Assembly: GCA_050273025.1 (NCBI GenBank)
Contig: CP158635.1
Coordinates: 8,184,001 to 8,248,000 of the forward strand
DNA: 64,000 bases
Origin: Cenococcum geophilum
Lineage: Eukaryota
Reading direction: 5' to 3'
Positions 10,599 through 45,100 of this stretch are shown here, piece after piece; position 1 is the first letter of the stretch, and each line of letters begins with the position of its first letter. The notes under the pieces are model-generated. The model saw nothing but the letters and a program-made list of their open reading frames with translations. It had not been told where the DNA came from and searched no databases. A program made the position numbers and the translations under genes.

Positions 10599-10791
10599 TG
10601 TTATAGGACGGGGGCAGTGGCTATAAAGCGTATGTATTTAAGGAGTCTACAAGATATTACGCGATCGATCGTAAGGGTCAAGGGCGTAAGGAGGTAATAT
10701 ACCTACGCGTAGCTAATATAAGCTATACGTAAGGTGTACGCGAGAGCACGGGGCTCTCCTATAGAGGCCCCTGCGGTGGGGTTCCGTAACA
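10599..10791 (-). repeat. 5' LTR of B1
   Basis: TG...CA; direct repeat of 4427-4619. Confidence 0.95.
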
Positions 10792-11615
10792 CTAAAGTTA
10801 TATACTTAGGCCTAATTATATTCTATAACGGAATTGAAATAGACCCTAAGAAAATCGCTATAATTATAAACTAGGAAAGTTCTAGTAGTATATAAAATAT
10901 TTAAGGTTTTTTAGAATTTGCAAATTTCTATTATTAATTTATTAATTACTTCTTAAAAATTATTTAGCTATTAATAAACTTAATAAAAAAGAATATAAGA
11001 TTTAAATAGACTACTAAATATAAATAAGCTTTTAACGACCTAAAATATTATTTTATAACTGCTTTAATTCTTACTTACTTTAATCCGGACTTTAAATATA
11101 TTATTAAAACAGACTTGTCTAATTATATACTAGAAGGAGTATTATCACAATATAATAAAAATGGCGAGTTATACCTAATAGCCTTTTTTTCCCCGAAAAC
11201 TTACCTCTGCTAAATTAAACTATAAGATTTATAATAAGGAACTACTTATAATTATTAGGTATTTTAAATAATAGCGTCTAAAACTTAAAGGATTGTTATT
11301 TTTAATACGCGTATTAACGGACTATAAAAACCTATAGTACTTTATAACTATAAAGCAATTAATATAATATTAAATTTATTAGGCCAAACACCTCTTATAA
11401 TTTAACTTTAAGATTATACACTAACCTAGTAAACTTAATTAAAAGCCTAACTTATTAATATAATAATTATAGAACCTACCTACTAACGCCTCTAATAAAT
11501 GGATTATAAACCAATTACAAAATTTACTGCCCCTTAAATACTTTAAGAAACTACCCCCTATATTTTTAAATATAGAGCTTAATAGGAATAAATTGGAAAT
11601 TAATAAGTGGGATAT

Positions 11616-15419: not shown

Positions 15420-17021
15420 GCAGGTAGTTATATATTAGCTAGTAGTGCTAGTAATATAGTAGAGTTTAACATACCTGCTTATCTAGGCCTCTACCCCAGT
15501 TTTCTAGTGCATTATCCCAGTCTATAAGTAGTTGGCTACTACCACCAATAACACGGGGAGTTTTACCAGTTCTTTTGGATATCTTATAGCTGGTCAGTCT
15601 GCCCCCCAGCAGTCTATATAAGAGTTTCCTCCCAGAGTTGGTACGCTTTCGCACGGCTTAGGAGCCTTCTATAGCCTCTGGTCTCACGCCTTTCTTTATT
15701 ATTTCCGCCGGTACGGGCATAAGCTGCCATTTCCAGGGGTCGCAACTCCCGTCTTACATACCTACTGGCGTAATCCTACGAGGGCGTCGTAGCTGCATCC
15801 TGCAATATGGAAGCCTTGGGTGCACCTTCTACAGTTAAGGCCAGCCAAACCTCTCCCGCCTAAGTAACTCCTGTTTGCTCCTTAAGCGTGCCTCACTAGC
15901 GTACTGCCCTAGCGAGCAGTCCTGTCTATTAGTACACCGACACGCGCATCCGTTTTTTCGAGCCACGTAGTAGTCTCTCCGGCCAGGACGTGATCCTACC
16001 TACCTACCAGGTGCACCAGGGGTCAGAGCCCAGTTAAGGGGTGAGGTCCCTAGAGCCAGCAGTGGCTACTACGTACTACGCCCCGCGGGAGGTTCCCGTT
16101 TCGCGTTGCCTGTAAGAGTCTCCTCATGACAGGCCGACCGTGTCTTGCAGGAGGGGGGCCGTAGAGACACCAGGTCCCGCACCAGACGACCTGCTCCCCC
16201 CCCTCCTACTAACCAAGCTTGTGTCCCCCCTTTTTATAAGCTGGCCTGTGTCTCTAACTATCGAGTCCTCGTCCAACTGGCCTGTGTTTCCTTAGAGCCT
16301 CCCCCATATAATACGCGTCAGGTTGCGTGCACCACGCCTATTAAGACCCTCCTGTGAGTCACCTGGTCGAACGCCATGGGGCCGTCGAAGCTGGCCTGTG
16401 TTTCCGCTGCCTAGAGCTTTGCCCGTGTTTCCACCTCGTTAAGCCGTCTGGTCGCCGTCGCGTCGCTATCACGTCGCTGTCGCGTCTGTCGTCCAGGTCG
16501 CGCGCACCACGCCTATTAAGACCCTCTTCTGAGTCACCTGGGTGTCGGATAGATAGGCCCTTGTAGAGGGGCCTTAACGAGTTCTCTAGGCAGGGCCTTA
16601 ACAAGTTCTTTGCGGTGGCCTTGGGGCCTTAACAAGTTTCGTACGAGGTATCTACGACGCGTTAACCTTAACAAGTTCTTATAAAAAGAGGTTCCCTACG
16701 CCCTCGCCGCATCCCTTTACGATCTCAGAGCTAGTGTAAGCCTAAGGGTGTCCTGTTATATGACTAGGACGCATCTACGTCAACTAGCTATAATAAGGCC
16801 AGTTTCGGGCCTGGCTATAAGCCAGGTAGTCGTATATCGGGTAGTTTTCGTATCCTAGTTTCCCTTAATAGGCCTCCCTAGGTGGTAGAGCAGGAGCCTC
16901 AAGCGGAGGCAGTAAGGCTTCTGGTGTTGTTGAGGGCGATGCGTACACGTCGCGAGCTCAACACCACAGAACCGCAGCGACAGCGCGCTACACGCGCTGC
17001 GACGGCTCTCTACCATCGCCT

Positions 17022-17106
17022 CTGCACTTGGCCATCAAAAGGAACGATTTCCTGATGATGTTTCCACCCGCGGCGACGTAGACGCGTACAGTAGGGCTTC
17101 GCGGGC
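17022..17106 (-). ncRNA. HDV-like self-cleaving ribozyme at the 5' end of element G, copy 1
   Basis: P1 GCCCGCG/CGCGGGT with first G.U wobble; P2 CTGYAC/GTGCAG; P3 GCG/CGC; L3 TCYACGT; P1.1 GG; P4 CATCA..AGGAA/TTCCT..TGATG; J4/2 GCCAA with the catalytic-C position at 17031. G1 abuts the TSD. Confidence 0.88.
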
Positions 17107-17211: not shown

Positions 17212-20200
17212 TATAACGGGACTAGCCTAGTTATAGTAGGAACGTCTTAGTAAAACACTTAATAGATAAATTCTGTTATAGGACACCCCTATAATACCTT
17301 ATACACGCCTACCTACTTTTACTATCTACGAGATCGCAATTTGCCGCGACCTATAGCAATCTAACGGTAATCTGCTATATTCTGCTATATTCCACTAAGT
17401 CCTACTAAATTCTGCTAAATTCTGCTAAGTTTTACTAAATTCTGCTAAGTTCTGCTAGGACTATATCCTAAATCCTATTTTACTCCATGTACGTATTAAC
17501 TAAGCAACTAAGTTAACAATATATACCCTTTCTTCCCGTTTTCCTATCTTCTTTCCTTACGCAACGTCTTAACCTTATTACACAGTTTATATATATAGCT
17601 TAATAATATCTACTCTACTATATATTATCGTCGCTTATACTTACTCCGTAATACTATATTACGTTAAACCTACCTTATACTGCCCCGTCTAATATATAAA
17701 ACAACCTAAAAGCCCCTATATCTATAAAAGACCTATATACTATATTTACCGAATAAATAAAGACTCTATAATAGGCCTTTACGAACACCCTTGCCTATTA
17801 AGAAGCCCGATATTATAAGTTAATCAAATCTCTAAAAAAAGAAATTAAAGAGATCCGCTAAAACCCACTATCTACCCTACCGTTACCCCTACTCGCCGCT
17901 ACTAGTATTAACCTATAAACACTAGGTAGAGAGAATATATCTAAAACTAGCTCCTTAACCCCAAATTTGCTAACTAGTACCCCTAGAAAGAAGTTAACTA
18001 AACATCTCCCTAATCCTCCCGCCTATTTAGGTAATAGAAGTAAACTATACTCCTTCCTTAACCAACTTAAGAATAAGCTAAATAGTAATATTAATCGCTA
18101 CCTAACTCCTAATAACTAGTTGTGTTACGCTATAAGCCGCCTAATAGGAGACGCCGTAAAAACTATATACCTATTTCAGCTAAGCACTATAAAAAACTAG
18201 TCACTATACTAAAAGCATCTTACAGCAACCCTAACCAAATTATTATAGTATAAAGAAAACCAAATAAGATAATATAAGGCTCTAAGAGCTTTCTATTATA
18301 CTTTACTAAATTCTACTACTATATTAAAGAGACTAGATGGAACAAACCCGCCTTAATTAATTGCCTAGTAGAGTCCCTAAACTCCGAACTAAAGGCTTCC
18401 CTTATAAAAGTTAAGCTGCTAAATACCCTTACCGCCTGTGCTAATGTTATTAACGGCTTATATAACGATATACTACACCTTACCCTAAAACATATATCCT
18501 AATACTCCGCCCCCTAGCCGCCTAAGACTCGCAAGGATCCGGATACTATAGATATTGATACTAGAATACTAGAGTATACTCTACTAGGGTTCTTTAAATA
18601 AGAACAACGCATTAAGCTAGGCCTTTACTTTAAGTGCGGAAGTAAAGACTATATCTTAAGAAACTATTCCGTCCCTTTGCCTACGCCCTAAAACGATTTA
18701 TAAACGGCTAATTTTAGTAACTATCTACCGCGCCCAACCTTAAGTTATTACTTATAGCCTTCCTTATCCGGTTCCAGGCCTACGCCTAGTAAGCGCCACT
18801 TATAAGGACGAAGCTATAACTAATATACTACGAGAACTCCGCCCTAATTACCTATAAAAGGAAGGTTTTAGAGCTAAGTCGCTCTCTAGGATAACTCTAT
18901 CTTAGGATTTTATTAAATGCTTTAGATATTACAAACTCTAACTTTTAGGATTATAGCATAACCGTTAACTGCCGCCTTTAGCAGAATAATTAATAGGCTA
19001 ATGCTTAAGTCCTAATTAATACAGGAGCTAGTAGTATAGGATTTATTAATAAGATCTTCGCGTAAGATAATAGTTTTACCCTAAACCCCCTTAACCGGCA
19101 TATTAACGTATTTGGATTTAATAGTAAACGCATAGTCTTAGGCTAAATTACCTATATAGTATATCTAAGACTCTAATACCTAAATTACGAAGAACTAATT
19201 AGGCTTTTTATCATTACCCTAGGTTACCTAATAATCCTTAAATAACCCTAGATAAAGCTATATAAGGTAAATATTAATTAGGACAACCTTAAGCTTTTAT
19301 TTACCGCCTTATAATATAAGCTAGAATGCTCTATAACACACCGCTCTAACCCTAAACTAAAATCTAAGAAATCTACTAAGATCCACTAGCCTAAGATTTC
19401 TACCAATATCTACTCTACGCCTAAGGAATCTACCAGATTCTACTAGTATAGGAATTCTACCGAATTTTACTAATATAAGAAATCCACCGACATCTACTAA
19501 GGATCCGAAAATTCTGCTAAATTCTATAAGTTATTACTAAGCATTACACCGCCCTAAACTAAGTAAAAGCTTAAGCTTAGTATATAAAACTACTAAAAGA
19601 ACTAATACCCTATAATAAAAAGAATACTTAAAGAACCTAAACCTAAATCTAATACTAACTCTATACCTAATACTAAACCTAAACCTAAATAAGGAACTAT
19701 GGACAATCTAAGCAAGCTCGGCACCCTAAATATCCGCATAATTAAAGCTACTCTATTAGTATAACTTACTAAAAAACCTAAACATACAATCTTCGCTATT
19801 ACTATAGCTAATATTAAGAAGGCCTTAGCACTGAAAAAGTATACTAACCCTACCATAAAGGTACTAGTAGAGTATTATTATCGCCTAGATGCATTCTTAT
19901 AAAAGGAAGCTAATAAGCTACTAGAACACCGACTATACGACTATAAAATTATACTTAAAAAAGGAAAGTAGCCTAGATTTAGACCCTTATATAGGATATC
20001 CCAAAATAAACTCTAAGTACTATAAAAGTATTTAGACGAGAACCTAAGTAAAGGATTTATTAGAGTAAGCTCGTCGCCTATAGCCGTACTAGTAATCTTT
20101 ATTAAGAAACCTAGTAGCGGTTTACGCTTCTATATAGACTACTAAGCTTTTAATACTATTACTGTTAAGAACTAATATCTAATTCCATTAATATAAGAGA

Positions 20201-23200
20201 CGCTAAACTAACTAAGTAAGGCTCGTTACTACACAAAGCTCAATATTATCTCTGCATTTAACCGTCTCTATATTATAAAAGGAGATAAATAGCTTACTGC
20301 ATTTTATACCCAATATAGACTATTTAAGTACTTAGTAATACCATTTAGCCTTATAAACGCTCTAAGCTCGTTTTAATATTATATAAATAATACCCTATAT
20401 CCCTACCTAGACATTTTCTATACTGCTTATATTAATAATATCTTAATATATAGTAATAACCTAACTAAATATTAGAAATACGTTAACCTTATTCTATAAG
20501 CCCTATACGGAGCTAGTCTATAATTAGATATAGATAAATATAAATTTTATAAAACGGAAGTCCTATACCTTAGACTTTTTATTTTTATAAACGGTATATA
20601 AATAGACCTAAAGAAAGTCGAAGTAATTATAAACTAGTAAAAACCTAAGAACGTTAAGGACGTAAGAGCCTTTATAGGATTTGCTAATTGCTACTAACAG
20701 TTTATTAATAACTTCTCTGCCCTAGTTTTACCCCTTATAGCTCTAACCTAAAAGGATAAAGTTTTTATCTTTAATAAGGAATATAAGAAGGCCTTTACTT
20801 ATCTAAAGGTTATGTTTACTTCTACGCCCATACTTTAATACTTTAACCTAAACCGAATAAGTGTTATAGAAGCCGACTTATCTAACTATATTATTAGAAA
20901 CATCCTGTCTTAATATAACAAGGATAGAGTATTATACCCTATAGCATACTTTTTAAAATAACTAAGCCTAGCTAAATATAACTACAAGATCTATAATAAG
21001 GAATTATTAGCTATTATTAGATATTTTAAACAATGGCGACCTAAACTAGAAGGCGCTAGATTTCTAATTAAGGTCCTTAGTAACTATAAGAACTTATAGT
21101 ACTTTATAACTACAAAATAGCTATATTATTATTAGGCCCGCTAGTTAAAATATCTATCTTATTTCTAATTCTTAATTATATACTACTTAGGCGTTTAAGG
21201 TTAAAAGCCTAACGCCCTAACCCAACACTCGCAAGACGCGCCAGCCCTAAAAAAAGCGCGCTCTTACTAAAATTAGACCCTACTTTGCCCTAAACTATTT
21301 AACCCTCCTATTAAAGATCTTACGGTATACGTCCTTAAAATAACTAATTAATTAATTAAATAGATTATAGTTAATAAATACCCAAATAACAAGTTTATCT
21401 AAGAGACGCTTAAACTAATATAAGATAGCATTAGACGCTTTAAAAAGATTTCTCTAAATAAATGCGAAGCCTACGGAAACCGCTTATATTACTAGAACCG
21501 CCTAGTTATACCTAACTATAATAAACTTAAGCTTAAGCTCCTTAAATATATACACGATTTACTAGTAGCCAGCTACCTAGGCCAAGGAAAAACCCTAAAA
21601 CTGCTTTAATAAGAATACTATTAGCTAAATATATATAATATAATATAAAGGTATATCTCTAGCTACTATATCTGCTAACGAGCTAAAGCTTTATATAAGA
21701 TGTATAACGGCCTCCTAAAGCTACTGCCTATTCTAGACTAAAGATAGAAAGACATCTTAATTAACTTTATTATTAACCTCCTTATAAGTAAAGGCTATAT
21801 AAACATTATAGTAGTTATAGACTAACTATCTAAGATAAGGCAGTTAATCGCCTGCCATAATATATTAATGCCTACCGTCGCCTAACTGTTCCTAGATTAT
21901 ATATAAAAACTCTATAGACTCCCTAAAACGATTATCTCTAATAAAGGCAGCTAGTTTATCTCTATATTTTAGAAAGAACTAACTACCTAACTCCGCATTA
22001 AAGCACTACTATTTACTATATATTACCTAGAAATAGACGGTTAAATAGAACGTATAAACGCTATAATAAAACAGTATATCTAAATATACACGTTATATTT
22101 ATAAGATAACTAGATTAACTGGCTTATATTTACCAAGTTTACTATAAATAATTTCATCTCGGAAACTATAAAGGTCTCCCTATTCCTAGCTAATTATGGC
22201 TAGCACCTATAAATAGGTTTTAAACCTTTTAGTAATATTCCTTGCCCCGCTTATTATACTTTATAAGTTATAAAAGTAAATAAATTTATAGAGAAGATAG
22301 AGGAACTATAACGGTTCCTTACTAATAAAATAATATGGGCCCAATCTATCTATAAAGCCGCAGCGAATAAAAAACAAACCCTAGCACTAGCCTACTAAAT
22401 TAGTAACTTTGTTTGGCTAGATATAAGAAACCTAAATATAAAATAACCTACTAAAAAACTTAATTAGAAAAACGCTGCCCTTATAAGATTAAGAAGGTTG
22501 TTTCCTTTTACGCCTACTAACTAAAGCTCCCTAATACGGTTAAAATCCACCCCGTATTCTATACGTTAGTCCTTTACCCTACTACCCCTATATTAGACGC
22601 CCTGCCTAGATAGATATAAGACCCTCCCCTACTAGTTAAAATAGATAGTAAAAATAAGTACTTTATTAAAAGAATTAATAATATTAAGTATAATAAACGG
22701 AAACGCTAATATATATATCTTACAAAATAGAGAGGCTTTATTAAGCCCTTATAGGAACCCGTTAACTCTATAGGACTTATATAAGCCGTAAAAGACTTTT
22801 ACAAACTCTACCTAGAACTACTATAGCCCTACCTCGCAGAAGCTTAATTTTAAAGGGGGGTACTATTATAGAACACTCCCGTAACACTTTATACACGCCT
22901 ACCTACTTCTACCGTCTATAAGACTGCAATTTGCCGCGACCTATAGCAATCTAACGGTAATATACTATATTCTGCTATATTCCACTAAGTCCTACTAAAT
23001 TCTACTAAATTCTGTTAAGTTCTACTAAATTCTGCTAAGTTCTGCTAGAACCACGTCCTAAATCCTATTCTACTCTATATATATATTAACTAAGCAACCA
23101 AGTTAACGGTATATACCCTTTTTTCCCATTTTCCTACCTTCTTTCCTTACGCAACGTCTTAGCCTTATTATATAGTTTATGTATATAGCTTAATAATATC

Positions 23201-24957: not shown

Positions 24958-25216
24958 GGCCTTAGCATTATAGCTAGGTATAAATTTAGAAGTGTTTTAA
25001 GGTATAGGGTTAGCAAGGTTTAGTATTACTCCCCCTATATATATAGTAGCGATAGCACCTAATTTCGCTTAGGCTTTACCTAAATTAGTATATAGAGCTA
25101 GCAGAATTAGATATAGTGGCTACTAAAAGGGTCGCCTCTTTATACTTAAAGTAATTCGCAACTTCTTTTTCTTACTAATATTATAATCTTTATTCTAGAT
25201 TATAGTGTCTTATTAT
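24958..25216 (-). mobile_element. Possible 3' end fragment of another LTR element (PPT AGGGGGAG then partial LTR)
   Basis: Minus-strand AGGGGGAGTAA followed by TACTAAACC (RIP-altered TG start?); no second copy to confirm. Confidence 0.3.
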
Positions 25217-27647
25217 TATAACAAAGCCTTATAGTAGGAACTACGGTAGACTTATTAATAGGCTAGGTGTATAGGTAAATAAGAAGTTAACAATGTAATA
25301 ATAACTAGTGGAGTAGCTGCCTAATAAATTAACTCTAATTATATTCTGAGATTTACTATAAAAAGAAGACTATTTAGGTAGGGACTGTGGTCCTTTAAAT
25401 ATATAATACTACGCCTAAGAAATGTACTAAATACGTTAGTATATTAGTATGTCGGTATATCTTACGTTCCTACGTTCCTATATTCCCATATTCTAAACTT
25501 ATAATATAACTAGCTATATAACTTAGTTACCTTTATCCTATAGCTTAATTAGTTCTAGCGCCTTCTATACTATCTTAACTAACCTATTTATATCTCTTCT
25601 TAGTAGTTATACTACTGCTAATATAAGGTCCGTAATACTATCCTCCTCCTTTTTATCTTCGTCCTTAAAGATATCTCCTATCTCTAAGTTGTTTATTAGA
25701 GGTATAGTATTCCTATTTCTAATTTAGTGACTATTATTATTTTTAATACCTCCTATTAGATTCGTTCCGTTTAATTATTATAACTAGCTAGTAACTATTA
25801 TCCTTTTACTTAATAAAGTTATACCATCCTGTTCTTATTATAAGGAAAGAAAGTTAGTATATATTATAATTGCGGCTCCGTCTAGTTACTAACCTTTCTC
25901 TTATACTAAGTATACGCGAGCGAATATATAATTATCCTATAACGTTTAATCCGTTTCTAACGCTAAGTATATATATCTTATTAATTTTTAAAGTCTTTAA
26001 CTTTCTTATCTAATCTATTATAGGGTCCTATGTTTAATCTAAGGCGTCCTACCTTAAAGATAAACTTACTACTGCTTTTACTAAAGTATAAAAGCTTTAT
26101 AATAATAGGGAGCGAATTTATACAAAAGAGCGGAAAGTATTTAAGGCTTAATAGACTATTTACACTTATCTAATCTATCTTAAAAAGGTTTATAAGAAGG
26201 TATACTTTAAGAAGTAGCGGCTTGCTAAGTAAGGTCTCCGTAAGCTTAAGGCTAAAAAGGCTAAAAAGAATTCTAATTAAGAAGAGGCGGAAACAACTTA
26301 TACGCCGGTAGTAGATCCCTTAGATAACCCGGCTTATTTATCACCTTTAACTAATCCCTTTATCTTTAGCTCCTTCTTAATATTACCTAACCCGTTCTCC
26401 TCTAATACTCCTATATCTTTTCTATAGCGTTCTTTAGGTTTTTTAGTAGCTCTTAGGTAGTCTTATTATAGCCTATCCACTTTACTTTATACTATATTTT
26501 ATTATTAATGTTCTTATAATTAACAATCTTTAAAACTTACTATTTATCTTCTTTTTACCCTTTATATATATCTGCTTTATAAACTAGTAGCTCTATATCT
26601 TTATACGCTAGCTCTAGTATTATAATATACTATATAGGGTAGATCTGTATCTTTATTAGTAAGTTAAGTCTATATATAACTTCTAAAATCTTAGCTATAA
26701 TTTTAAATAGTCCTAGTCTAACGTAGTCTAACTTCTTACTTAGTTATTAACTTATAAAATTTTTATATAATAGCTATACTTTATCCCCCTCCTTTAGATC
26801 TGGTCCCTTAGATCTCTTAGCGTTATAGTACTTTTTTATTCTTTTTTATACTAATTTTGCTATAAAATAGAGGTCCTTATAAAGATTTATTAAATTTTCT
26901 TTACTTATTATAATAATAGCAATATTCTAGGCTTATACCCGTAATTTACCTAAAATATTAATATCTCTATGCCTTCTTATAGTGTTATATTATATATAAA
27001 CTATATAACTAGTAGTAATAATATCTTAGATACTACTCTAGTATCTAATTTAGTCTTTCTATTTATCTGTCTATCTACGGATAATATATAGTAAAAGTTA
27101 CTACTCTAACTCCTTATTCCGCTAAGAATACCTCCTAAATTACTACTATAAATCCTAGATCTCTATCTAATATAATTTTACTTAGTGCTCTGTGTTTTAT
27201 AAATACTTCTTTAATATAGATTCTAGCGACATCCCCTACTAAGATTTCTTCTGTATATGCTATAAAGTAGCCCTATTTAGTTAACTTATCCACTATTATA
27301 AGGATTACATTATACTTCTATCTAGTAATAGGATCTTTTAATTTTAGCAACTTTATAATAAAGTCCTATAATATAACTTCCTATAGTCTTTCTGGTGTTT
27401 TAATAGGCTATAGCTTCCTATATAGCTTATACCTCGTTAGCTTATTTCTTTAGCAATCTAGGTACTTTTTTATAACTTTTCTAGCTAAGCTTTAAATTCC
27501 GTTAATAATATATTCCTCTTAAAGTCTTAATACTAAGCCTATAGCTTTATTATGTCCCTATATTATTCCTCTATAGAAATCTTCTTTCACTATTTTTCTT
27601 GGTATGTATATTACTTTTTAATTTTTGTACTACTCTATATCTAGGTC
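25217..27647 (-). mobile_element. Ty3/gypsy chromovirus H, 3' part (integrase, chromodomain, antisense ORF, 3' LTR ~25217-25637)
   Basis: Integrase motifs at 26650-27600; chromodomain de-RIP WYKVKWIGYDETTWEPLENLKNA ~26420-26540; PPT AGGAGGAGGA 25641-25650 then TATTACGGAC; left LTR end approximate. Confidence 0.82.
25746..26445 (+). pseudogene. Antisense accessory ORF of gypsy H with Zn2Cys6-like cysteine spacing and acidic/coiled C-terminus; probable intron ~25970-26022
   Basis: De-RIP MPP..LGEVMPSCSRCKERKLVCVAIAAPSSRQPSSCAECTRANMRSSCDVRSVSDAE. One Cys is intact TGT, five are TAT (RIP of TGT). Confidence 0.7.
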
Positions 27648-27733
27648 GCCGGCGAAGCCCTACTGCACGCGTCCACGTCGCCGCAGGTGGAAACATCATC
27701 AGGAAATCGTTTTCTTTTGATGGTCAAGTGCAG
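27648..27733 (+). ncRNA. HDV-like ribozyme at the 5' end of G, copy 2 (catalytic C changed to T at 27724; one P1 mismatch)
   Basis: GCCGGCG-AAGCCCTA-CTGCAC-GCG-TCCACGT-CGC-CGCAGGT-GG-P4-GTCAA-GTGCAG. Confidence 0.85.
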
Positions 27734-28614
27734 AGGCGATGGTAGGGAGCCGTCGCAGCGCGTGCAGCACGCTGTCGTCGCGGTTCTGTGGTGTTGAGCT
27801 CGCGACGCGTACTATCAAAGCATCGCCCTCAACAACAGCAGGAGCCTTACTGCCTCCGCTTGAGGCTCCTGCTCTACCACCTAGGGAGGCCTATCAAGGG
27901 ATACTAGGATACGAAAACCACCCGATATACGACTACCTGGCTCGTAGCCAGGCCCGAAACTGGCCTTATCATCAGCTAGTCAACGTGGACGCGCCCTAGC
28001 CGTACAACAGGACACCCTTAGGCTTGCACTAGCTCTAAGATCGCAAGACAAGGGCGTAAGGAAACCCTTTTTTATAAGAACTTGTTAAGGTTAACGCGTC
28101 GTAAATACCTCGTATAAAACTTGTTAAGGCCCTACCTAGAGAACTTATTAAGGCCCCTCTACGAGAGCCTATCCGGTACATCCAGGAGACTTAGAAGAGG
28201 GTCTTAATAGGCGTAGTGCGCGCGACCTAGACGAGACAGTGTTGCGATAGCGACGTGACAGCGGCTAGATGGCTTAACGAGGTAGAAACACGGGCAAAGC
28301 TCTAGGTAGCGGAAATACAGGCTAGCTTCGACGGCCCTATGGCGTTCGACCTACGGTCGACCTACAGGTGACTTATAGGAGGGTCTTAATAGGCGTAGTG
28401 TATATAACCTAATGTATATATATAAGGCGACTTATAGGAGGGTCTTAATAGGCGTAGTGTACGCAACCTAGTATATATATATATAGGGGAGGTCTTAAAG
28501 AAAACACAGGCCAGTTAAATAAGGTCTTAACAGTTAGAAATATAGGCTAGCTTATAAAAAGGGGGGGACATAAGCTTAGTTAGTAGGAGAGAAGGGAGTA
28601 GGTTACCTAGTACG

Positions 28615-31600
28615 TGTCACGGGACGGGGGCAGTGGCTACAAAGCGTATGTATTTGAGGAGTCTACAAGACGTTACGCGATCGATCGTAAGGGTTGAGGG
28701 CGTAAGGAGGTAATATACCTACGCGTAGCTGACATAAGCTATACGCGAGGTATACGCGAGAGCACGGGGCTCTCCTATAGAGGCCCCTGCGGTGGGGTTC
28801 CGTGACACTACCCCCCCTCTTATAGAGGCGGAGCTCCGGCGACGCTGTGGTTACTATATATATATAGAAGAAACACTTAAGGTATAGAAAAGAAGAAAAG
28901 GGGGGTATCGCTAAAGGCTTAAAATAATGTTATATAATAGGGCTTAGTATCTAAGAATCTAACCAATTAGATAACTTTAACCGCCGGTTAAAGTTCCTAG
29001 ATATCTTAACGATATTCTAGTCACGTAATCGCACTTTACCATAATCTGACGGCAATTTAATAGCAATTTGCCCTTATGTGGTAATATATAACGGTTTAAC
29101 TCTATAAGGGCTCCTATAGAGGATTAGGTATAAAGTCTCTACTTAGGCCCGGTTTCTATAGGTTCGCGTAGTAAAAGTTACTAATTAGATCCTTTGCATT
29201 TTTAAAGTCTTCCTATAGTTGCCATTCTAGCTAATCTATATTAAATCCTGTGTATATAGCTCTGTAGTAGAGCCGTCGTCCTCTGCCTTTACTAAAGTAT
29301 TTAGAGTTAATAATTCGTTTAACGGTCTACTCCTTATGGTTCTTATCTTTGTTCTTATCTTAGATTAGTACTAGTAGGGGTTTAGGCTATATCTGCCCTA
29401 ATAAGGGGTTAGGCTAATAGAGATATAGTAGCTATAGGTAAAATATAGGCTATATTCCGCGGGTGGCTAGGGCAGGTAGGAGTTCTAGCTTATATACGGC
29501 TCCCCTATTAATAACTCATTTAATTAGATAGGGGCTAAGGTTCTTATAATTAAGTGACTTTATAGGCCTTTACGTAAAGATATTATGTATATCTAGCTAT
29601 ACCTAGTCGCCAACATGCATCTCCGGTGGTGGCGTTCTATAACGGTCGGCGAAGTAGGCCTACTTTACTTAAGCCTAGGCCATTTCTCCCTTACAGTAGT
29701 TAAGTAGATTTTTTATATGGTCTGCATACTAGTCGGTAAATAGCATCTTAAGGCGTTTTCTATATGGCAGTTTCTTATTAATAGGTTCTGGTGGCTCTAT
29801 ACTAGATTAGGGGTAATAACCCTTATTCGCAAAGAATGGGGTAAGTCCTATAGTAGTTAAGACGTGGTTATTCGCTGCGAATTCACCTAGTAGGAGGTAA
29901 TCCACCCAGTTATCTTAACTATAGGCGACTACCTGTTATAGGTACGCTTTTATACTGGTATTAGCGTTTTCTAGTTACCTAGTAGTTTTATAGTAAAAGG
30001 ATATAGACATCTTAACGGAGATGCTAAGGCGTTAGTAGATTCGTCTCTATATATTGGAGTTAAATTATATGCCTTGGTCGGACGTAATTAAGTTAAGTAA
30101 CCTATATAGTCGGTAAACTTTGCGGAGAAAGGCGTTAGTAACGTCGCTAACGGCTACGCCTTTGGTTAGGACGTAGTGGCGCTCTTTTATAAGTCGGCAT
30201 ATTATTATAAGGATGTTCTTATAGGTACGGCCGTGTTATTTATAGGGTAGTAGGTTAACAATGAAATCTATAGCAATATCTGCCTATCGTTATATAGGTA
30301 TTAATAGAGGGTATAGTAGTCCTTGGTACTTTATATTAAAGGCCTTAGCGCACTTATAACCGTAGTAGGCGCCTATAAAGCGTTTAACTAAGTCTATTAT
30401 TTTTGGCTAGAAGTAGTATTAGCTAAAAAGCTTATAGGTTCCTTCTCTACCTAGGTGGCCGCTTAATCAGAGGTTGTAGGCCATTTAGATTAGTTGCCGT
30501 TATAGATTTTCTAAGTTAGGGATAAATAGGTGGCCTCTATAATAGAGCCTGTTCTCTTTTACTTCTAAGGCTGCTATATTAATCTAGCCTAAGCTTTAAA
30601 GGTTAGTAGGCAGCGTATAGGCGCTAGCGGTCTTTACGGTAATAAGTTAATGCAGTAATAGGTCGGCAGAGGCGTTATATGCTATAGTAATAAGCTCGTT
30701 AATTTTGGGAGGTAATTCTAGTTCTGTGGTATAAAGCTGGGGTATAGTTGGCTCTATTATAGGTAGTATACCTAGGGCCAAATTTCGTATTTTTAGAATC
30801 GTTTATTGTTAGAACTAATTATAGGGGTTATCTTTAAACTAAGGAAGGTCTTGCGAGCGGCGTGTTAGGCTATTAGGTTTAGTACCTTATACTCCTAGTC
30901 TATATGTAATTTTAAAGTTAAAACCAGAGAGGAACTCGTTCTAACGTGCTTAGCGTTAGTTTAGCTACTTTGTGGTTATAAAGTACTTAAGGTTACAATA
31001 GTCCGTAAGAACTTTAGTTGGCTAGTTAGGCTCTACTAAGGAGAGTTCTGGTTAAAATTCTTTAAACGCTCGTATAATTATAAGGAGTTCTTTATTATAG
31101 ATCTTGTAGTTACACTCTTATAGTATAAGCTTAGACGAGTAGAATATAACTAGGTAAAGGAGACCGTTATTACCTATTTGGGAAAGGATGCCTGCGTTAA
31201 CGTGGTCTAAGGAGTTAGTTTTAAGGTAAAGTTATTGTCCTAGTGTAAAGTAAGCTAGGACAGGTGCTTTAGTAAAGGCATTTTTAAGGTCTTGGAACGC
31301 CTTCTCGCATTTAGGCGTTTAGGTAAAGCGTAGGTACGTTTTTCTTCCTTTTGCAGAAAGGCCCTTTATTTGTATTATTGCTATAAGTGGTGCTACTACG
31401 CCTAAGAAGTTATATATGAATTTCTAATAGAAGTTGGCGAAACTAAGGAAGGCTTATACGTCCTTAATGCAGTTAAGGGCTTGCTATTTAGTAATTATGC
31501 GTACCTTCTTAGGGTCTATATAGACACCCTTAGTAGTAATAATTAGTCTAAGGTATTTTACTTCTGTAACTAAGAATTTATATTTCTTTAAATTAATATA

Positions 31601-34600
31601 AAGTCCTACGTCCCTAAGGCGCTGTAGGACCTTTTAAACGTGTTTAGTATGCTTAGAGGGGTTATCGCTATAAATAAGTATGTTATCTAGGTACGCGGAG
31701 TAGAAGTCGTTAAAGTAGTCCCATAAGGCGTTATTAATATAGCTTTAGAAGGTGCCTAGGCCGTTATATACGCCAAAGGGTATAATAGTATATTTAAATT
31801 GGCCGAAGCGCAATGCGAATGCGGTTTTTTATTTATTACCTTCCTATATTTAGAGGTGGTTAAAGGCGGCAATAATATTAAGCTTAGTATAGATTTTAGC
31901 TTAACTAAGCCGCTTAAGGGTCTCACGTATAAGCGGTACTGGGTATTAGTTTTTAATTATAATAGCGTTAAGTCCTCTGTAGTTAATATAGAATCGGATA
32001 CCTCCTTCTAGCTTCTTAGCGAGAAGGATAGGGGCGGCTGCTGGTAATATACTAGGACGAATGAATCCTTTATTAAGGTGCTTGTTGATATACTTTTTTA
32101 TAACTAAAAGCTCGTCTTTTAACATTAGGTAGGGTCTCTTATAAGATAGCATTTTTCCTTATTTAATGTTAATAGTATAGTTATTAGGTTAATATAGGGG
32201 GAGTATATCTACGCTCTTTTATAAGCATATATCGGTAAAGTCGTAGTACCTCTTAGGGAGGAGCTTGCGGAGTTCTTTATTGGTAAGTCCTTTTTTAAGC
32301 TTTATAAACTTCTTAAAGTCTAAAGGTAAAAGTCCGTAGAGTTCTATAGGGGCGTCGTCTTCTAGAAGGTTAACTATATCTATCCTATTACTATAGAGGA
32401 CGTAGTCCTATTCTTTATTAAGCTTATATAGTTATAATTAAAAAGCTATAACAACGGTTTAGCCTTTCTTATGTGCTATGTAGTAGAAGGCTAGGGCACT
32501 TATATAGTGGTAGTTAGTTATAGGTAGGGTAATAAGGGGTTCCTTAGGTTAATATCCTAGGGAGTAAATAGAGGTGGCTAGGCCATGCCCTAGGCAAGTC
32601 TCTTTATAGTATTTAGAGTTAAAGGTTACTTTTCTCTTCTTCTAGTTAATAGCGGGGTTGTATTATTTAAGCTAGTTCATTTTAAGGATAATAGGGTAGT
32701 TAGTAAGTAGTATTATATAGGCCTAGAGTTCTTCCTAGTGCCCATTTATATCTAGGTAAAGTTGTGCCATATAGGTAATCTTCTATGCGGTATAATTACT
32801 ATTAGCGAGTTATAGGGCGCGGGCTTTAGTAAGGGGTAAGGTAGGTAGGTTATAAGTGCGTATAAATTAGGTATCTATAAATTTATTAGTAGCTCTACAA
32901 TTAATTATAGAACGGCTTTTGTATTATTTTTTAGCAGTAGTTCCTATTATAGGTAAAACTATCTATTTCCGTCTATTTATCTTTATAGAGTTATTTATTA
33001 AGTAAGCCGATATATAGATCCCTTTATTATTAGGGCGTCTTAACCCACGACTTAGGGCTAGGACTTAGCGTTTTTCATTTCCTTATCTAACTCTACTGCT
33101 ATTACTGTGTCTTTGTCTTATATGGTAATAGCGTATAGCAATATATTTAGTGTTTGGGGTATTAGGCTAGGTATTAGGCGGCAGCTACTAAACCTAGCCA
33201 TTAGGCAGTTTAGGTTATCGCAATAATAGTCTTCTTAACGGCATTTATAGCAGCGTCCTAGTTTCTGGAGTAGCTCGCGCTCTCTATCTAGGAGTTTTTA
33301 TGGGAAGGTTAGTATAGAGAAATCGATATTGGTTCCGGTAGTACTTAAAGTAGTAGGCGTCGGTGGCTTAGTATATATAGGTTTAGTAGGCCCAGGGGGC
33401 TTCTATAGAGAGGTCTTTAGGTAAGGGTTAGCAGTAGCTATTTAATTTAGTCGTCGTTCGATCTTCTATAGAGCTGCTACTATATTATAAATATTGTTAT
33501 AGTTATAGCTAGCGGCTGCGTAACTAAGGCGATAAGTAACTTTTTTAAGGAGGTCCTTTTGGTCTTTAGTATTATCTTAGGCAAGGGCTCCGGTGTATTC
33601 CTAGAATTTAACATAGAATTCGTTAAATAATTTAGTAGGGCTTATTTTTAGGGTATATAGTTTAGCTCGGTTAGTAGCTAATAGGTCGTAGTTGCGGTAT
33701 ATTAGGTTAAAATCGTTAAGGACTTCTTAGTAGGACTGCTACTTCTGGGGGCCACTAGTCTCCTATTAGGCGAAGAGTCTATTAAACAGTATACCCTTTA
33801 TTCGCCTAATAATATAGCCAATCTTAATGTCTTCTATAGAAAAAAGGCAGGCGCTCTAAGTTAGTTTCTTACGGATTTATATCTTCTAGTAGCTGTATTC
33901 CTTACGGTCTCCCTAAAAGACTAGGGGATTAGGGTAGCGTGCATTAGACCCTACGGTGGTAGTTTAGGTCCAATTATTATAGCTTTCGTTATTACTACTT
34001 TAGTAGGGGTTCCTATTAGGTAAAGCTGCTTAGCGCTAGCCCTCTATTAAGCGTTAAGTAGGTAAAGTTACTAGGGGCGTAGAGACTTAGGTGGCGTTAT
34101 ATATAGTAAAGAGGTATCTAGCGTTGTTACGAATATGCTTATTAAGCTAAGATTATAGGTATTTAATTATGCCTTCTCTTTTAGTAACTATAGCAATTAG
34201 TGCAATCTTAGCCTTCTTTAACTGTTAGACGTCGCGTTTAGACACATAGAGGTTATCTTTAGTTTCTTATTATATATTATTAGCGAGCGCCTCACAAGCT
34301 TATAGGTCTTGGATAATATCGTGATCTTAGGTAGTACGTATCTTAGCTTATATAAGCTTTAGGTAATAGTTCTATAAAAGGCGGTAGTATTTATTAGGGT
34401 CTTATGCTACCATTTTTGCAAACGTCTCGGCGTCTTATATTCCGATTTTAATAGGTAGTAGCCCTTCCGTTTGCTTATCCGTAGTTATATAGTTAATAAA
34501 AGATAAGATATTATTAATGCCCGTCTCCTTAGAGGTTAAGGCTAGGGCTAATAAATCAAATTCTCCTGGGATTGATTAGCGTCGTAGGTTAGGTATAGGT

Positions 34601-34977
34601 ATTAGATTGTTCTTTAGGTTTAATATAGTAGCTAATAAGGGATATCGTCTTACTATCGTGGGTTCCTTAAAAGTATAAAGTAAGGTAATTCGTAGACACG
34701 CTACTTCTAGCAGCGCCTGCAGTATTGCAGAGACGTAGAATTAGTTATAGGCTAAGCGTTAGTGGTAAAAAAGGCGCAACGTAATGTTACGGGACGGGGG
34801 TAGTAGCTATAAAGCGTATGTATTCGAGGAGTCTACAAGACGTTGCGCGATCGATCGTAAGGGTCAAGGGCGTAAGGAGGTGATATACCTACGCGTAGCT
34901 GACATAAGCTATACGCGAGGTGTACGCGAGAGCACGGGGCTCTCCTATAGAGGCCCCTGCGGTGGGGTTCCGTAATA
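28615..34977 (-). mobile_element. Ty3/gypsy chromovirus B, copy 2, full length (6363 bp), RIP-inactivated
   Basis: 193-bp LTRs at 28615-28807 and 34785-34977; collinear with 4427-10791; flanking duplication TACG; ORF 31946-32152 is a surviving RT fragment. Confidence 0.96.
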
Positions 34978-35780
34978 TACGGGACCTAGCGTCTCCATAG
35001 CCCCCTCCTATAAGATATAGTCGGCCTATTATAAGGAAACTCTTACAGGCAACGCGAAACGGGAACCTCCTATAGGGTATAATGCGTAATATTTACTGCT
35101 GGCTCTAGGGACCTTACCCTTTAGTTAAGCTCTAACCCCTAGTGCACCTAGTAGGTAAGTAGGATTATATCCTAGTTAGAGAGACTACTATACGGCTTAA
35201 GAGAATGGATACGCGTATTAGTGCACTAATAGACGGGACTACTCGCTCGCTAGGGTAGTACGCCGGTAAGGTACGCTTAAGGAGTAAATAGGAGTTACTT
35301 AGGCGGGAGAGGTTTTAGCTAGGCCTTAACCATAAAAGGTATACCTAAGGCTTTTTACATTATAGGATGCAGCTATAACACCCTTATAAAATTACGCTAG
35401 TAGGCGCGTAAGACGGGAGTTACAACCCCTATAAATGGCAGCTTATACCCACGCTAGCGGAAATAATAAAAAAAAGCGTAAAACTAGAGGTTATAGAAGG
35501 CTCTTAAGCCGTATAAAAGCGTACTAACTCTAGGAGGAAACTCTTATATAGACCGCTAGGGGGCGGACTAGTACTTAGGCTAATAACCTATTATAAGATA
35601 TCTAAAAAAACTAGTAAGAACCCCTATATTATTAGTGGTAGCAGCTAACTGCTTATAGAAAGCCCCTTTAGGGCTAAGGGCCTAGAGGTTTAAGATCGTT
35701 ACTAAAAAACTAGGGTAGAGGCCTAGATAAGTAGGTATATTAAACTCTACTATATTACTAGCTAATATATAACTACCTGC

Positions 35781-36963
35781 CTAGACGTAAAAGGGGCTTT
35801 TAATTATATCTCTAAAAACTAGCTTTTATCCATCTGTAAGGAACTAGGACTACCTATAGCGTTTATATAATAAGTAGCCACTTTCCTTAGCAATAAAAAG
35901 CCATAGCTCTCCTTTAATAGGCAAATATAAGAAAAAGTAGAACTAGAAATAGGGATACTATAGGGATCGCCTATATCCCCTATTTTATTTCTACTATATA
36001 TACGCAATATCTGCAGTATATAGACAGAAGGAGCCTATTCTCTTAGCTACATAGATAATTTTACAATTACGGTTAACGTATTCTACCAGCGAGCCGGCCA
36101 CCCCACCAAGCCGGCCACTTCAAAATACACTAAAAAGCCGATATTTTAATCTCAAATATCTTAACCACTACTTAATAATATTTTCTGAAAATTTAAATAT
36201 AAGCTCTTATATACCTATTTTAGTATATATTATAATACTAAAGCGTATAACTTAGTGGTTATTATAATATAGAGTTTAGGGGTTAAAAATAGAGATATTT
36301 TTAAATATCTTAACAACTACTAGAGGGTATACTCTTATATTGTAATAAGTACTAAAATAGGTATATGAAAGCTTATATTTAAATTTTTAGAAAATATTAT
36401 TAAGTAGTGGTTAAGATATTTAAGATTAAAATATCGGCTTTTTAGTGTATTTTAAAGTGGCCGGCTCGGTAGGGTGGCCGGCTCGCTAGTAGAATACGTT
36501 ACTTTAAATTCTACTAAATCTAATTATAAAAAGCTAGAGAGAATAGCGCTAAAGCTAATATCTAAAGCTAAAGAAGCTACTATTAGTTTTAATGTTAGCA
36601 AAATAGAGCTTATATACTTCTATAGTAAACGTACCACTATAAAAAAAGAGTTAAAGCTAGGAGACATAAAAATATCCCCTAAACCCCTAGTTAGGTAGTT
36701 AGGGGTATTCCTAGACTCTAAGCTTACTTTTAAATAATATATAGAAATACAAATCCTTAAAGCAAAGGCAGCCTTCTATTTAATTAGAAGGCTAGGTAAT
36801 ATATAAAAAAGTCTATCTCTATAAGCCCTACAACAGCTCTATATAGCTTACATTACTACTATAGTAGACTATAGAGTACAATACTAGTAGAAAAGCAAAT
36901 CTAGAGACTACCTACTAGATAAGTACTAATCTCTATAAAATAAGGCCCTAAGACTAGTTTTAG
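35781..36963 (+). pseudogene. Tad1-clade LINE2 reverse transcriptase fragment, interrupted by a MITE and cut off by gypsy D
   Basis: De-RIP LDVKGAFDHVS, GIPQGSPVSPILFLLY, SYIDDF, WLGVFLDSKLTF; ORF 36474-36698 is part of it. Confidence 0.9.
36076..36499. mobile_element. Tc1/mariner (pogo/Fot1-type) MITE, 424 bp, ~150-bp terminal inverted repeats
   Basis: ACGTATTCTACCAGCGAGCCGGCCACC...GGTGGCCGGCTCGCTAGTAGAATACGT; TA TSD; removal restores the LINE frame (ITVTSNS). Confidence 0.93.
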
Positions 36964-42140: not shown

Positions 42141-45100
42141 TGTTACGGCACTAACCTAATGTATACTGTTTCATACTGTCTCGTACTGTTTCCTACTGTT
42201 AGCTAGCCTACTACTAGCGACTTAGCGGCCGGCCCTACTATTTATATACAATACCCCCTTTCTACCTTCTTCCCCTCTTTATACCATAACATAGTTATTT
42301 AGTCTACTTTATTATAGCACTATAACAGTTTATGGTATCTTTAATTTACGCCCTATCGCGATTACTAATTCCCCGTACCCTAGCTAATTAACCTTTACCC
42401 TAAAGTAATTGCAACTTACGCGCGCCTCTACTAAAACTAATACGTCCCTAGTATAGTCCTAAAATAATCTTTAGTTTTTACCTAACGCCTAAATAGGCAA
42501 CACTAATAACGCCAAAATGGCCGAAACCTAGAACCCCTACGACGTTTTCGTAGACCTATTTATAGAGATATACCCTAATATTACGTAGACAATCCGCCGC
42601 TCCCCACTATACCCTAAGACCTTTAAGCCTAGCAAAGCTTACCTTACCGTTATTAACTATACCAACGAGTTCCTTAATAACATTAAAGTAGGACTATAGT
42701 GTATATATAATATAAATACCGCTAATAAGAAAGCTAACAAAAACCTTAGTGCCCTTATCGCTTTTTAAATAGGAACTATTAACTCCTAGGCAAAGACTAT
42801 TACTATTCTAAAATAATTAACCCCTATAATAACGGTAGTAACCTAGTAGAAAAAACGGAGATCTAAAGACCCGCTAATATTTAGCGGAAAAGGTACCCCG
42901 TTAGAATAATAAGCTAATTTTAAGACCTAGCATATTAAGATTAAGGGAGTCTTTAACCGGGACTAGGATTACTTTAATACAGTTTAGTCCTAGATCCTTT
43001 ATATCTTAGATATACTAAAGGATAAGGCCTATAAGTTTATTAAGTAGGGCTTAGAGCTTATACACAAGAACCCAAACAACATATCTACGTGGAAATGGCC
43101 TACTAAAGAAGATATGCTTAAAGACCTTACTGCCTACTATAAGGTCCTTAATATAACCTAGGTCGCAAAGAATAAGCTTAACTATTTCTCCTAAGGCGAG
43201 CGTAATTACTAGTCCTAGAAGGGAGAGCTTAATAAGTTAATAGTCCGCGCTAAGAAGATAGATAAATAGAAGGTGGACCTACTCTAAAAGTTTATCTCTC
43301 TAAAGATGGAAGAGCTAGTACTTAGACTTGCCTATAAAATTAATAATAATAATTATATAGGTTAGAGCAAGTAGATAGATATATTCGCTAAAAACCTCGC
43401 GAACTATACATACTAAGCCAACCTTAAGAAGAACGCTAACTACCACCTACCTACCTAAGCCCCTACCCCTATATTAACCCTAACCCTAGCAATAACTAAA
43501 AAACCTATAGACCTTAATAAAATCTTAGATACGGAGCGTAAGTGCTGCGTTAATAATAAACTATACCTTACCTATAGCCTATCCGGCCACTGGAAGGATA
43601 CCTATAACCCTACTAAGATAGTAGATTTAGTCCTAATGCTACCCTATTAAATAACGCAAACTAATAACTGCAGATGCGGCGACTATAGAGTCTATTATAG
43701 ACGTGGCGACCGCGGAGCCTATTATAGCCGCAGCAGACGACCCCCCCCCCCCCCCCTTTAACCCTATAGCTTAGTTACTTTAAACTATACCCTATATAGG
43801 AGCCTAACCCGTTAATAACGCCTAGTATTAGTAACTTCGCGCTAGTAAATACAAACACAGCTACATTATTAGTAAGGTATTATTTTCCTATACCCTAACT
43901 AAAATAGAGACTAACATCGCTAGCTAGATAGACACTAGACCGCCCCGCAAAGACAGCCCTATACCCTAGTCGTTAAAAGGTAAACCCTTAGATTAAGTTG
44001 CGCCTAAGGGTTTAAACCATATAAGGAGGAAGACAAGAAGATTAGGTCCCTATTACTAGATTAATTAGTCCTTTTTATTAGTAAACTACTACTTAATCTT
44101 GGATTAGTAAACAGTAATAAGAAATTAATCCTTATTTAAACCCAACTCTCCTTATTATATAACCTATGCCCCTAAGTTTATATTAATATAGTAAGCCTAG
44201 TAGACTCCGGTAGTACTATAATAGCATTTACTAACGCAGAGTCTATTATAAGAAAGTATAATATTATAATTAAGAAGCTACTGGCACCTAGGCTACTACG
44301 CCTCGCAGATAGTATCCTAACTTCGCTTATTATAGACTACTTTACTACCTAAATATTAATCGGCCTCTATACTAAAGCTATACTCTTTTTTATTACTAAA
44401 CTCTTGCCCACTACCTTAATTATCCTAGGTATGCCCTAGCTTTAGAAGTATAAGCCCTATCCCAGCTTTAGGAAACTTAAAATCCACTTTAACTCAGACT
44501 ACTACTCTAGGCACTACCTCCCGTAGGGGATAACCGACGTTAGTAGGGACGCCCTATATAGATACTTAGTACTACTAAGCCTAGTACCTAGGACTATATA
44601 TAAAGCCCTAATAGTAGAAGACGTTCCTAATAAAGGGGAGCCTATATAGCTGTAAAGAAATAAAATAATAGAAGACTAAACTGCCCTAGCATTTAAGACT
44701 AAAATAATAGGCTAGCCAGCCCTACCGAGACTAAGAAAGAAGGTCTGCTTTACGCCGCTACTATTAAGAATCCAACCCTAACCTAGGCACTATTTAAACC
44801 CTAGCCGCCTAGCCTAACACCTAAAACTAAGCTATATGCTATATACGCGCACTATAGCTTATATTATAGTAAGGACGAGCTATAAAACTACTAAGACCCA
44901 AATAATAAAAACTGCGCTACTATAACGCCTAACCTTATACCTATCTCCCGCGCGTACTATATAGGGCTACCGCCTTGTTTCCGCCCCCCTAGGCCGACTA
45001 AGCTATACTAGCCTAGCTATAGCACCAGAGAACTAGACACGCCCTAACCTAGACGATATTAAATGCACTTATACTATTAATTTTACCCAGTTCTATAAAT

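What the first reader, a model, noticed from the sequence alone, without database searches (positions are those of the whole stretch)
25746..26445. Gypsy element carries an antisense, apparently spliced ORF with Zn2Cys6-like spacing
Seen: between the chromodomain and the PPT of H, on the opposite strand, codons give C-x2-C-x6-C-x13-C-x2-C-x8-C if five TAT codons are RIP products of TGT. Established: this spacing fits the fungal Zn(II)2Cys6 DNA-binding cluster, and an antisense intron survives retrotransposition. Inference: an element-encoded DNA-binding regulator or anti-silencing factor, transcribed from the 3' LTR.
Basis: partly seen in the sequence, partly recalled or inferred. Interest (0 to 1): 0.7.

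Follow-up and report, generated by a model that had tools for sequence, protein, structure and literature searches.

The report
Antisense zinc-cluster gene in fungal retrotransposon
This stretch is a mutation-killed copy of a real extra gene that a family of fungal jumping genes carries backwards near its end, encoding a small six-cysteine, long-helix protein that is probably the element's own regulator, while the element's main reading frame stays open right across it on the other strand.

Summary
Confirmed. Element H is a RIP-killed, 5'-truncated chromoviral Gypsy copy. On the opposite strand lies a two-exon gene (25746-25968, 55-nt intron, 26024-26427; about 208 aa): six-Cys cluster, predicted coiled coil, acidic tail. 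In 273 homologous proteins the six columns read 583 Cys, 950 Tyr and 17 other; little-mutated natural copies have all six Cys, a GT donor and open exons. Transversions cluster at this gene's third codon positions, so it is not a shadow of pol. 77 of 78 intron lengths (eight size classes) keep that frame. It is not a canonical Zn2Cys6 member: Pfam score is under the cut-off, the basic recognition loop is missing and the fold is unresolved. No transcript could be examined. The closest precedent is brtn of Botrytis Boty elements (function unknown; homology not testable here). Most likely a self-encoded transcriptional regulator. The scan noted such a gene before on other DNA of this genome (8 notes).

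The parts
25217..25637 (-). 3' LTR of element H (about 421 bp); U3 begins at 25637; TATA-like site near 25392-25402; ACGT-rich repeats in U3 of little-mutated relatives
   Evidence: Homology to genome copies ends at 25209-25232 in 9 of 12 copies tested; LTR edge and far end located; TG..CA terminal repeat visible in L106
25638..25655 (-). polypurine tract
   Evidence: Purine run directly before the LTR edge in the window and copies; least variable region in the alignment
25746..25968 (+). antisense gene exon 1: N-terminal helix, then six-Cys cluster (codons 25830, 25839, 25860, 25902, 25911, 25938); start codon ATA here, ATG in 15 of 48 genome copies
25969..26023 (+). 55-nt intron of the antisense gene (donor GT in little-mutated relatives, AT here; branch CTAAT at 26010; acceptor TAG 26021-26023)
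26024..26427 (+). antisense gene exon 2: long amphipathic helix (predicted coiled coil, ~26024-26260), then Pro/acidic/hydrophobic tail; stop TAG 26425-26427 (second TAG 26458-26460)
25500..26400 (-). pol reading frame continuing about 290 codons past the chromodomain, through exon 2, intron, exon 1, PPT and about 37-45 codons of the LTR (stop-riddled by RIP here; open in little-mutated relatives)
26400..27640 (-). pol 3' part: integrase, SH3/GPY-F region and chromodomain; cut at ~27640 by another element

Best explanation
A family of ascomycete chromoviral Ty3/Gypsy elements carries an accessory gene on the antisense strand between the chromodomain and the PPT. SHOWN: the gene is real, has one intron, evolved under protein-level selection and encodes about 208 aa (six-Cys cluster, long amphipathic helix, Pro/acidic/hydrophobic tail); the pol frame is kept open across it into the LTR; the copy in this window is dead. 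INFERRED: it is transcribed from a promoter in or beside the 3' LTR, 109 nt upstream of its ATG. Its intron survives retrotransposition because the genomic RNA is the other strand. The protein binds two zinc ions in a Gal4-like cluster, dimerises through the helix and acts in the nucleus in trans to raise expression of its own family, a miniature Gal4 layout with a divergent recognition surface, most likely working on the LTR. The open pol tail is constrained mainly for frame and not for sequence. The likeliest reason is that it moves the pol stop close to the poly(A) site, so the inserted gene does not create a 3' UTR of about 1 kb that invites nonsense-mediated decay.
For: Cys/Tyr-only columns. 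All six Cys and open exon 1 in L143, L106, L157 (GC 0.49-0.52). Integrase/chromodomain on the opposite strand in 22 of 22 long loci. Splice signals kept across eight intron size classes, with exon 2 joining in frame. RIP-proof transversions in exon 2 fall at this gene's third positions: 31/60/29 by sense position, p 5e-4, and 19/45/22 in genome copies alone. Exon 1 follows the antisense pattern (9/19/39; pairwise 11/6/21, 16/8/26, 13/9/29), and the overlapping sense residue flips Gln/His under C1 and C3. Zn_clus is the top Pfam family in 13 of 17 copies (best E 0.0054). The AF2 models place short helices at both CxxC pairs (low confidence). Open pol frame: 0 stops against 5-12 in the other frames; P(0) 0.0015-0.007 under a null that keeps the antisense protein; 77 of 78 intron lengths and 75 of 76 PPT-to-ATG spacings keep frame; LTR-encoded end motif in pol register in 41 of 42. 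NMD grows with 3' UTR length from yeast to man (PMC5360307 passages).
Against: The recognition loop lacks the basic residues of host zinc clusters: K at C2+4 in 22 of 83 against 17 of 18; C2+6 is V in 78 of 83 against K/R in 18 of 18. The C3-C4 linker is 13 against 5-6. Pfam 14.3 bits against a cut-off of 21. hhalign to host clusters gives only 37% and covers one half. 79 of the 83 six-Cys copies come from two assemblies and were selected by a six-Cys pattern. The positive-control regions (chromodomain 8/5/11, integrase end 8/6/12) lean to third positions but are not significant, and columns are not independent. L106 carries a 1-nt indel in exon 2 and frameshifts in integrase, so no fully intact element was seen. 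No direction of regulation (activation or repression) is shown.
Confidence: 0.45

Rival explanations
1. The protein is a zinc-bound protein-interaction module, not a sequence-specific DNA binder. It works as an anti-silencing or chromatin adaptor (VANC-like in role; recalled) or helps nuclear import or integration of the element.
For: Basic recognition loop absent; weak likeness to DUF3716 (6 of 17, best E 0.0043; Atlas cluster with 28% DUF3716 at 0.79), a domain found in genes of a fungal DNA transposon (PMC8232023 passages) and in a repeat family of this genome.
Against: Cluster + coiled coil + acidic hydrophobic tail is the layout of zinc-cluster activators (established knowledge). The hhalign match to DUF3716-type sequences is only 7.8%.
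Confidence: 0.22
2. It is a negative regulator (copy-number control). Like HTLV-1 HBZ (recalled: a spliced antisense gene from the 3' LTR with a dimerising zipper), it damps the element's sense transcription, helped by antisense RNA that can pair with the genomic RNA.
For: Same position, orientation and splicing; a cluster without a canonical DNA-recognition loop plus a dimerisation helix suits a dominant-negative. Vicient and Casacuberta raise regulatory and dsRNA roles for such ORFs (PMC7264820 passages).
Against: The acidic hydrophobic tail looks more like an activation region (inference). The family reached high copy number (3117 first-look candidates, 150 scored).
Confidence: 0.2
3. It is cargo that changes host biology (development or stress response) and is kept for that reason, as reported for the DUF3716 gene REP9-1.
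For: REP9-1 expression alters pycnidia numbers in Zymoseptoria (PMC8232023 abstract and passages).
Against: The gene is fixed at one position in many diverged element subfamilies and interlocked with pol, which points to benefit for the element. No host-captured single-copy version appeared among the top genome hits.
Confidence: 0.08
4. The antisense ORF is only a shadow of a functional Pol C-terminal extension, and the Cys codons mirror conserved Gln/His codons.
For: The pol frame is open across the region; exon 1 shares third positions with it.
Against: In exon 2 variation peaks at sense position 2, the opposite of what sense coding gives (60 of 79 against 30 of 79, Fisher p 2e-6). Splice signals are conserved on the antisense strand. 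Sense residues flip Gln/His while Cys stays.
Confidence: 0.03

Closest known systems
brtn, antisense gene of Boty-like (BcGypsy1) Gypsy elements of Botrytis cinerea and Sclerotinia (Zhao et al. 2011, PMID 21802103; paper not held; seen only as a title in reference lists and in passages of PMC8365987, bioRxiv 10.1101/2021.04.13.439636 and PMC7264820)
   Same: Fungal Gypsy element, extra gene in antisense between pol and the 3' LTR, function unknown.
   Different: The review (PMC7264820) states that no clear similarity to other proteins has been described for such ORFs. Here there is a six-Cys cluster, an intron and an overlapping open pol tail. Whether BRTN is a homologue could not be tested: no BRTN sequence is reachable with these tools.
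Gal4-type Zn(II)2Cys6 binuclear cluster transcription factors (Pfam PF00172)
   Same: C-x2-C-x6-C-xn-C-x2-C-x8-C spacing; following long helix; acidic hydrophobic tail.
   Different: Below the Pfam cut-off; no R-x-R/K-K-x-K/R loop; C3-C4 linker 13 instead of 5-6; the first half resembles the second half of host clusters; only about 208 aa; carried by a retrotransposon.
DUF3716 (PF12511) proteins of fungal transposons, e.g. REP9-1 and REP9-2 of Zymoseptoria tritici (PMC8232023)
   Same: Small six-Cys domain with a helix and Gly before C1, in genes carried by mobile elements.
   Different: C2-C3 gap 6 here against about 9 in the genome's DUF3716 copies; match below cut-off; REP9 is a class II element.
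Antisense additional ORFs of plant Gypsy elements (Grande gene23, RIRE2, Retand; PMC7264820 passages) and retroviral antisense genes such as HTLV-1 HBZ (recalled)
   Same: Position, orientation, suspected nuclear regulatory role.
   Different: No sequence relationship is expected or was tested; those plant elements are non-chromoviral.

Membership tests
Zn(II)2Cys6 binuclear cluster (PF00172) | Six Cys spaced C-x2-C-x6-C-x5..16-C-x2-C-x6..8-C | tested here: met
   C-x2-C-x6-C-x13-C-x2-C-x8-C in P0017, P0037 and 83 natural loci; columns Cys/Tyr only in unselected sets
Zn(II)2Cys6 binuclear cluster (PF00172) | Pfam score above the curated cut-off (21 bits) | tested here: not met
   13 of 17 copies hit weakly, best E 0.0054; L143 14.3 bits
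Zn(II)2Cys6 binuclear cluster (PF00172) | Basic DNA-recognition loop between C2 and C3 (Lys at C2+4, Lys/Arg at C2+6) | tested here: not met
   K at C2+4 in 22 of 83, V at C2+6 in 78 of 83; host clusters 17 of 18 and 18 of 18
Zn(II)2Cys6 binuclear cluster (PF00172) | Binuclear cluster fold | tested here: inconclusive
   AF2 mean pLDDT 52 and 54; fold searches with these models uninformative
Zn(II)2Cys6 binuclear cluster (PF00172) | Binds two zinc ions and CGG-type DNA sites as a dimer | not testable with these tools
   Needs biochemistry
DUF3716 (PF12511) | Pfam score above cut-off (22 bits) | tested here: not met
   6 of 17 weak hits, best E 0.0043; L143 12.2 bits; hhalign 7.8%
brtn-type antisense gene of fungal Gypsy elements | Antisense ORF between pol and 3' LTR, present in most copies of the family | tested here: met
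   48 genome copies; pol on the opposite strand in 22 of 22 long loci
brtn-type antisense gene of fungal Gypsy elements | Sequence homology to BRTN | not testable with these tools
   Paper not held; no Botrytis sequence reachable
brtn-type antisense gene of fungal Gypsy elements | Antisense transcript | not testable with these tools
   The one run search listed no RNA run, so no reads could be laid
Chromoviral Ty3/Gypsy retrotransposon | Integrase followed by SH3/GPY-F region and chromodomain, then PPT and LTR | tested here: met
   RT-based clade placement not tested because the 5' part of H is missing

The most novel reading that the evidence does not exclude
A lineage of fungal Gypsy elements has built a two-strand coding cassette. 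One strand gives a spliced, self-encoded zinc-cluster transcription factor of a divergent class that acts on the element's own LTR (or lifts heterochromatic silencing from it). The other strand is a roughly 290-codon Pol tail, held in frame even through the antisense intron, the PPT and the LTR, which shields the genomic RNA from nonsense-mediated decay and may end in a functional LTR-encoded motif.
Probability: 0.3. Interest if true: 0.8.

Novelty: new variant of a known kind. Interest (0 to 1): 0.6.

Why it matters
Gypsy elements are usually thought to need only gag and pol. Antisense extra genes in them are known (brtn, plant aORFs), but what they do is an open question because they resembled nothing. 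A recognisable cluster + coiled coil + acidic tail layout turns that question into direct tests (zinc binding, DAP-seq on the LTR, silencing). It would also show a fungal retrotransposon with a retrovirus-like accessory regulator, in genomes where RIP and heterochromatin are the main defences. The frame-locked overlap with pol is a rare case in which an intron's length is constrained by a gene on the other strand.

Tried and rejected
Loose Cys/Tyr pattern as evidence by itself: 5 matches in the window, so rejected. An alternative intron at about 25854-25910 (GTTAGT...CTAAC...AAG) was considered on reading and dropped: it would remove C3 and C4, and relatives read straight through it. An unmutated copy in the own genome: none among the 40 scored of 740 candidates, best 78% to L143. 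Full-length spliced homologues in protein collections: none shown among the best hits (all partly RIP-mutated, unnamed or 'hypothetical'); the search of 320-2000 aa proteins found none. Viral contigs: chance matches only. 36 of the 119 metagenome pattern hits were unrelated or low-complexity and were dropped by HMM. PDB sequence searches: nothing with A2, only weak C2H2 linker look-alikes with A3. Structure: two AF2 models under pLDDT 55; Foldseek no match; VIA-align best Z 2.4 and 3.8; this absence says nothing about the fold. Atlas: best scores 0.79 and 0.87, leads only. RNA: no RNA holder listed for L106:1400-2800. Codon-position test was flat or not significant in the exon 2 tail, intron and PPT-to-ATG region, so sequence-level selection on the pol tail is not shown. 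Literature: ten searches listed no paper that describes a six-Cys cluster in a fungal Gypsy antisense gene or the pol read-through; subscription papers (including Zhao 2011) and supplements were not seen and may bear on this. PMC3248453 had no passage on zinc or antisense.

Full report
Setting. The window is a block of nested, heavily RIP-mutated fungal retrotransposons (TpA/ApT 1.5-2.05 throughout) in a 178-Mb, 7-contig genome that has at least 83 matches to the fungal zinc-cluster family. Element H lies on the minus strand: integrase, SH3 region and chromodomain down to about 26400, PPT 25638-25655 and a 421-bp 3' LTR 25217-25637. It is cut at about 27640 by another element, and its 5' part was not found in the window. 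The family is large: 44 DNA matches from 40 scored of 4117 candidates, and 150 of 150 scored protein matches.

The observation. The spacing is there at 25830-25940, one TGT and five TAT. By itself it is weak, since a loose Cys/Tyr pattern hits 5 places in the window. In 48 genome copies (30, 18 after dropping two duplicates) the six positions give 28 Cys, 257 Tyr, 2 His and 1 Asn codons, no stop or Trp, and ATG in 15 of 48 starts. In 273 homologous proteins, found with profiles of the mutated copies, the six columns hold 583 C, 950 Y and 17 other residues, whereas Arg-derived control columns hold 87-155 R and 13-30 H. These were selected for Cys and 79 come from two assemblies, so they show existence, not conservation. 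Three are little mutated (L143, L157, L106; GC 0.49-0.52) and have an open exon 1 from ATG with all six Cys. In 22 of 22 loci long enough, integrase or chromodomain follows on the opposite strand. L106 shows the whole order RNase H end, integrase, chromodomain, antisense gene, PPT, LTR, with a few single-base indels.

The gene is spliced and protein-coding. The intron starts one base into a Trp codon, with GT donor, CTRAY branch and YAG acceptor, and exon 2 follows in frame. In the window it is 55 nt (25969-26023) and its donor is mutated to AT; GT remains in 3 of 48 genome copies, CTAAY in 31 and the TAG acceptor in 39. Transversions, which RIP does not make, shared by several of 98 aligned copies fall in exon 2 at sense positions 1/2/3 as 31/60/29 (p 5e-4; genome copies alone 19/45/22, p 7.5e-4). 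Sense position 2 is this gene's third position. In exon 1 the counts are 9/19/39, with this gene's second position the most conserved. Pairwise differences among the three little-mutated copies are 11/6/21, 16/8/26 and 13/9/29, and the sense residue under C1 and C3 flips between Gln and His. Columns are not independent, and the pol control regions lean the expected way without significance. The product is about 208 aa: N-terminal helix, six-Cys cluster, long amphipathic helix, then a Pro-rich acidic tail with Phe and Leu.

The pol frame does not stop after the chromodomain. In L106 it is open to the single-base indel in exon 2 and open again from there to a stop 37 codons into the LTR. It has 0 stops in 187, 236 and 163 codons of L106, L157 and L143, against 5-12 in the other two frames. 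Under a null that keeps the antisense protein and shuffles the rest, P(0) is 0.0015, 0.002 and 0.007; the copies are related. Every stop-rich column of this frame in the mutated copies has a RIP-precursor sense codon in some copies. Segments that do not code for the antisense protein still keep this frame. Intron lengths of 55, 61, 64, 115, 124, 127, 130 and 133 nt account for 77 of 78 measurable metagenome copies (5 not measurable). PPT-to-ATG spacings keep frame in 75 of 76. The end motif in the LTR is in pol register in 41 of 42 copies that show it, of 47 examined, at two distances. At least seven length changes in the intron and two in the leader, all multiples of three, have a chance of about (1/3)^9, or 5e-5. 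Sequence-level selection on this tail is not shown. My inference is that the frame matters more than the peptide: it would shorten the 3' UTR from about 1 kb to about 0.2 kb, and decay efficiency tracks 3' UTR length (PMC5360307, passages).

What the protein is like. Zn_clus is the commonest Pfam hit (13 of 17 copies, best E 0.0054) and DUF3716 the next (6 of 17), both under cut-off. Against 18 host zinc clusters from this genome, hhalign gives 37%, aligning the first half of the domain to their second half. The basic loop that host clusters use on DNA is absent, and the C3-C4 linker is 13 against 5-6. Two AF2 runs stayed under pLDDT 55, though both put short helices at the CxxC pairs, and fold searches were uninformative. 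It should therefore be called Zn2Cys6-like, not a member of the family. U3 of little-mutated relatives has ACGT repeats (9 in 440 nt in L106), a candidate target only.

Mechanism and odds. Gene real and formerly selected: about 0.95. Zinc-cluster fold: about 0.7. Positive nuclear regulator of its own element: 0.45; protein-interaction or anti-silencing adaptor: 0.22; repressor or copy-number control: 0.2; host-phenotype cargo: 0.08; shadow of pol: 0.03. Transcription from the 3' LTR is inferred from position alone; no RNA run could be examined.

Comparison with what is known. Antisense genes at this position are known in Botrytis and Sclerotinia Boty elements (brtn; title and citing passages only) and in plant Gypsy elements, and the review read in passages says none resembled a known protein (PMC7264820). 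DUF3716 genes ride in a Zymoseptoria DNA transposon (PMC8232023, abstract and passages). Ten literature searches listed no description of the six-Cys cluster or the pol read-through; subscription papers and supplements were not seen. HBZ, VANC, Gal4 contacts and the antisense-intron principle are recalled, not looked up. Eight earlier notes of this scan describe such a gene on other DNA of this genome; I saw them after reaching this reading, and they are not independent evidence.

Verdict. A real accessory gene, dead in this copy; a new variant of a known kind. Interest 0.6.

Noticed in passing
G000, loci L183-L194 (31 matches in all): A separate repeat family carries DUF3716 six-Cys ORFs, mostly with RIP stops; no integrase or chromodomain match within 1.5 kb of 12 loci. 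Possibly another mobile element with a related cysteine domain.
   Followed up: partly
window 25440-25500; L106:2580-2670: U3 of the LTR has an array of ACGT-core repeats (9 in 440 nt in L106; 5-6 in L068, L079, L087), next to a near-palindromic TTTAAATA site that could serve both strands.
   Followed up: partly
window 25525-25637 (minus strand); L106, L143, L157, L089: The part of the pol frame inside the LTR encodes an amphipathic stretch of 24 or 26 codons and a short conserved acidic Pro/Trp motif, although the LTR DNA between them diverges.
   Followed up: partly
window 36074-36501: Inverted repeat with 197-nt arms, 87% complementary, 34-nt spacer.
   Followed up: no
window 57158-57900: Tandem array of about 17-nt units grading into longer degenerate units.
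   Followed up: no
window 16225-17106 and 27648-28566: Less mutated, GC-richer repeat present twice in inverted orientation; the second copy is the element that truncates H.
   Followed up: no
window 4427-10889, 17273-23162, 28615-35075, 42143-49057: Other LTR elements in the window gave no hit to the six-Cys, DUF3716-type or host zinc-cluster profiles, so the gene is family-specific here.
   Followed up: partly
L010, L020, L013/L025, L018/L019/L026, L032: Genome copies differ by in-frame exon 2 variants of 414-453 nt and look mosaic; L010 has lost the splice acceptor and L020 has a 21-nt intron deletion.
   Followed up: no
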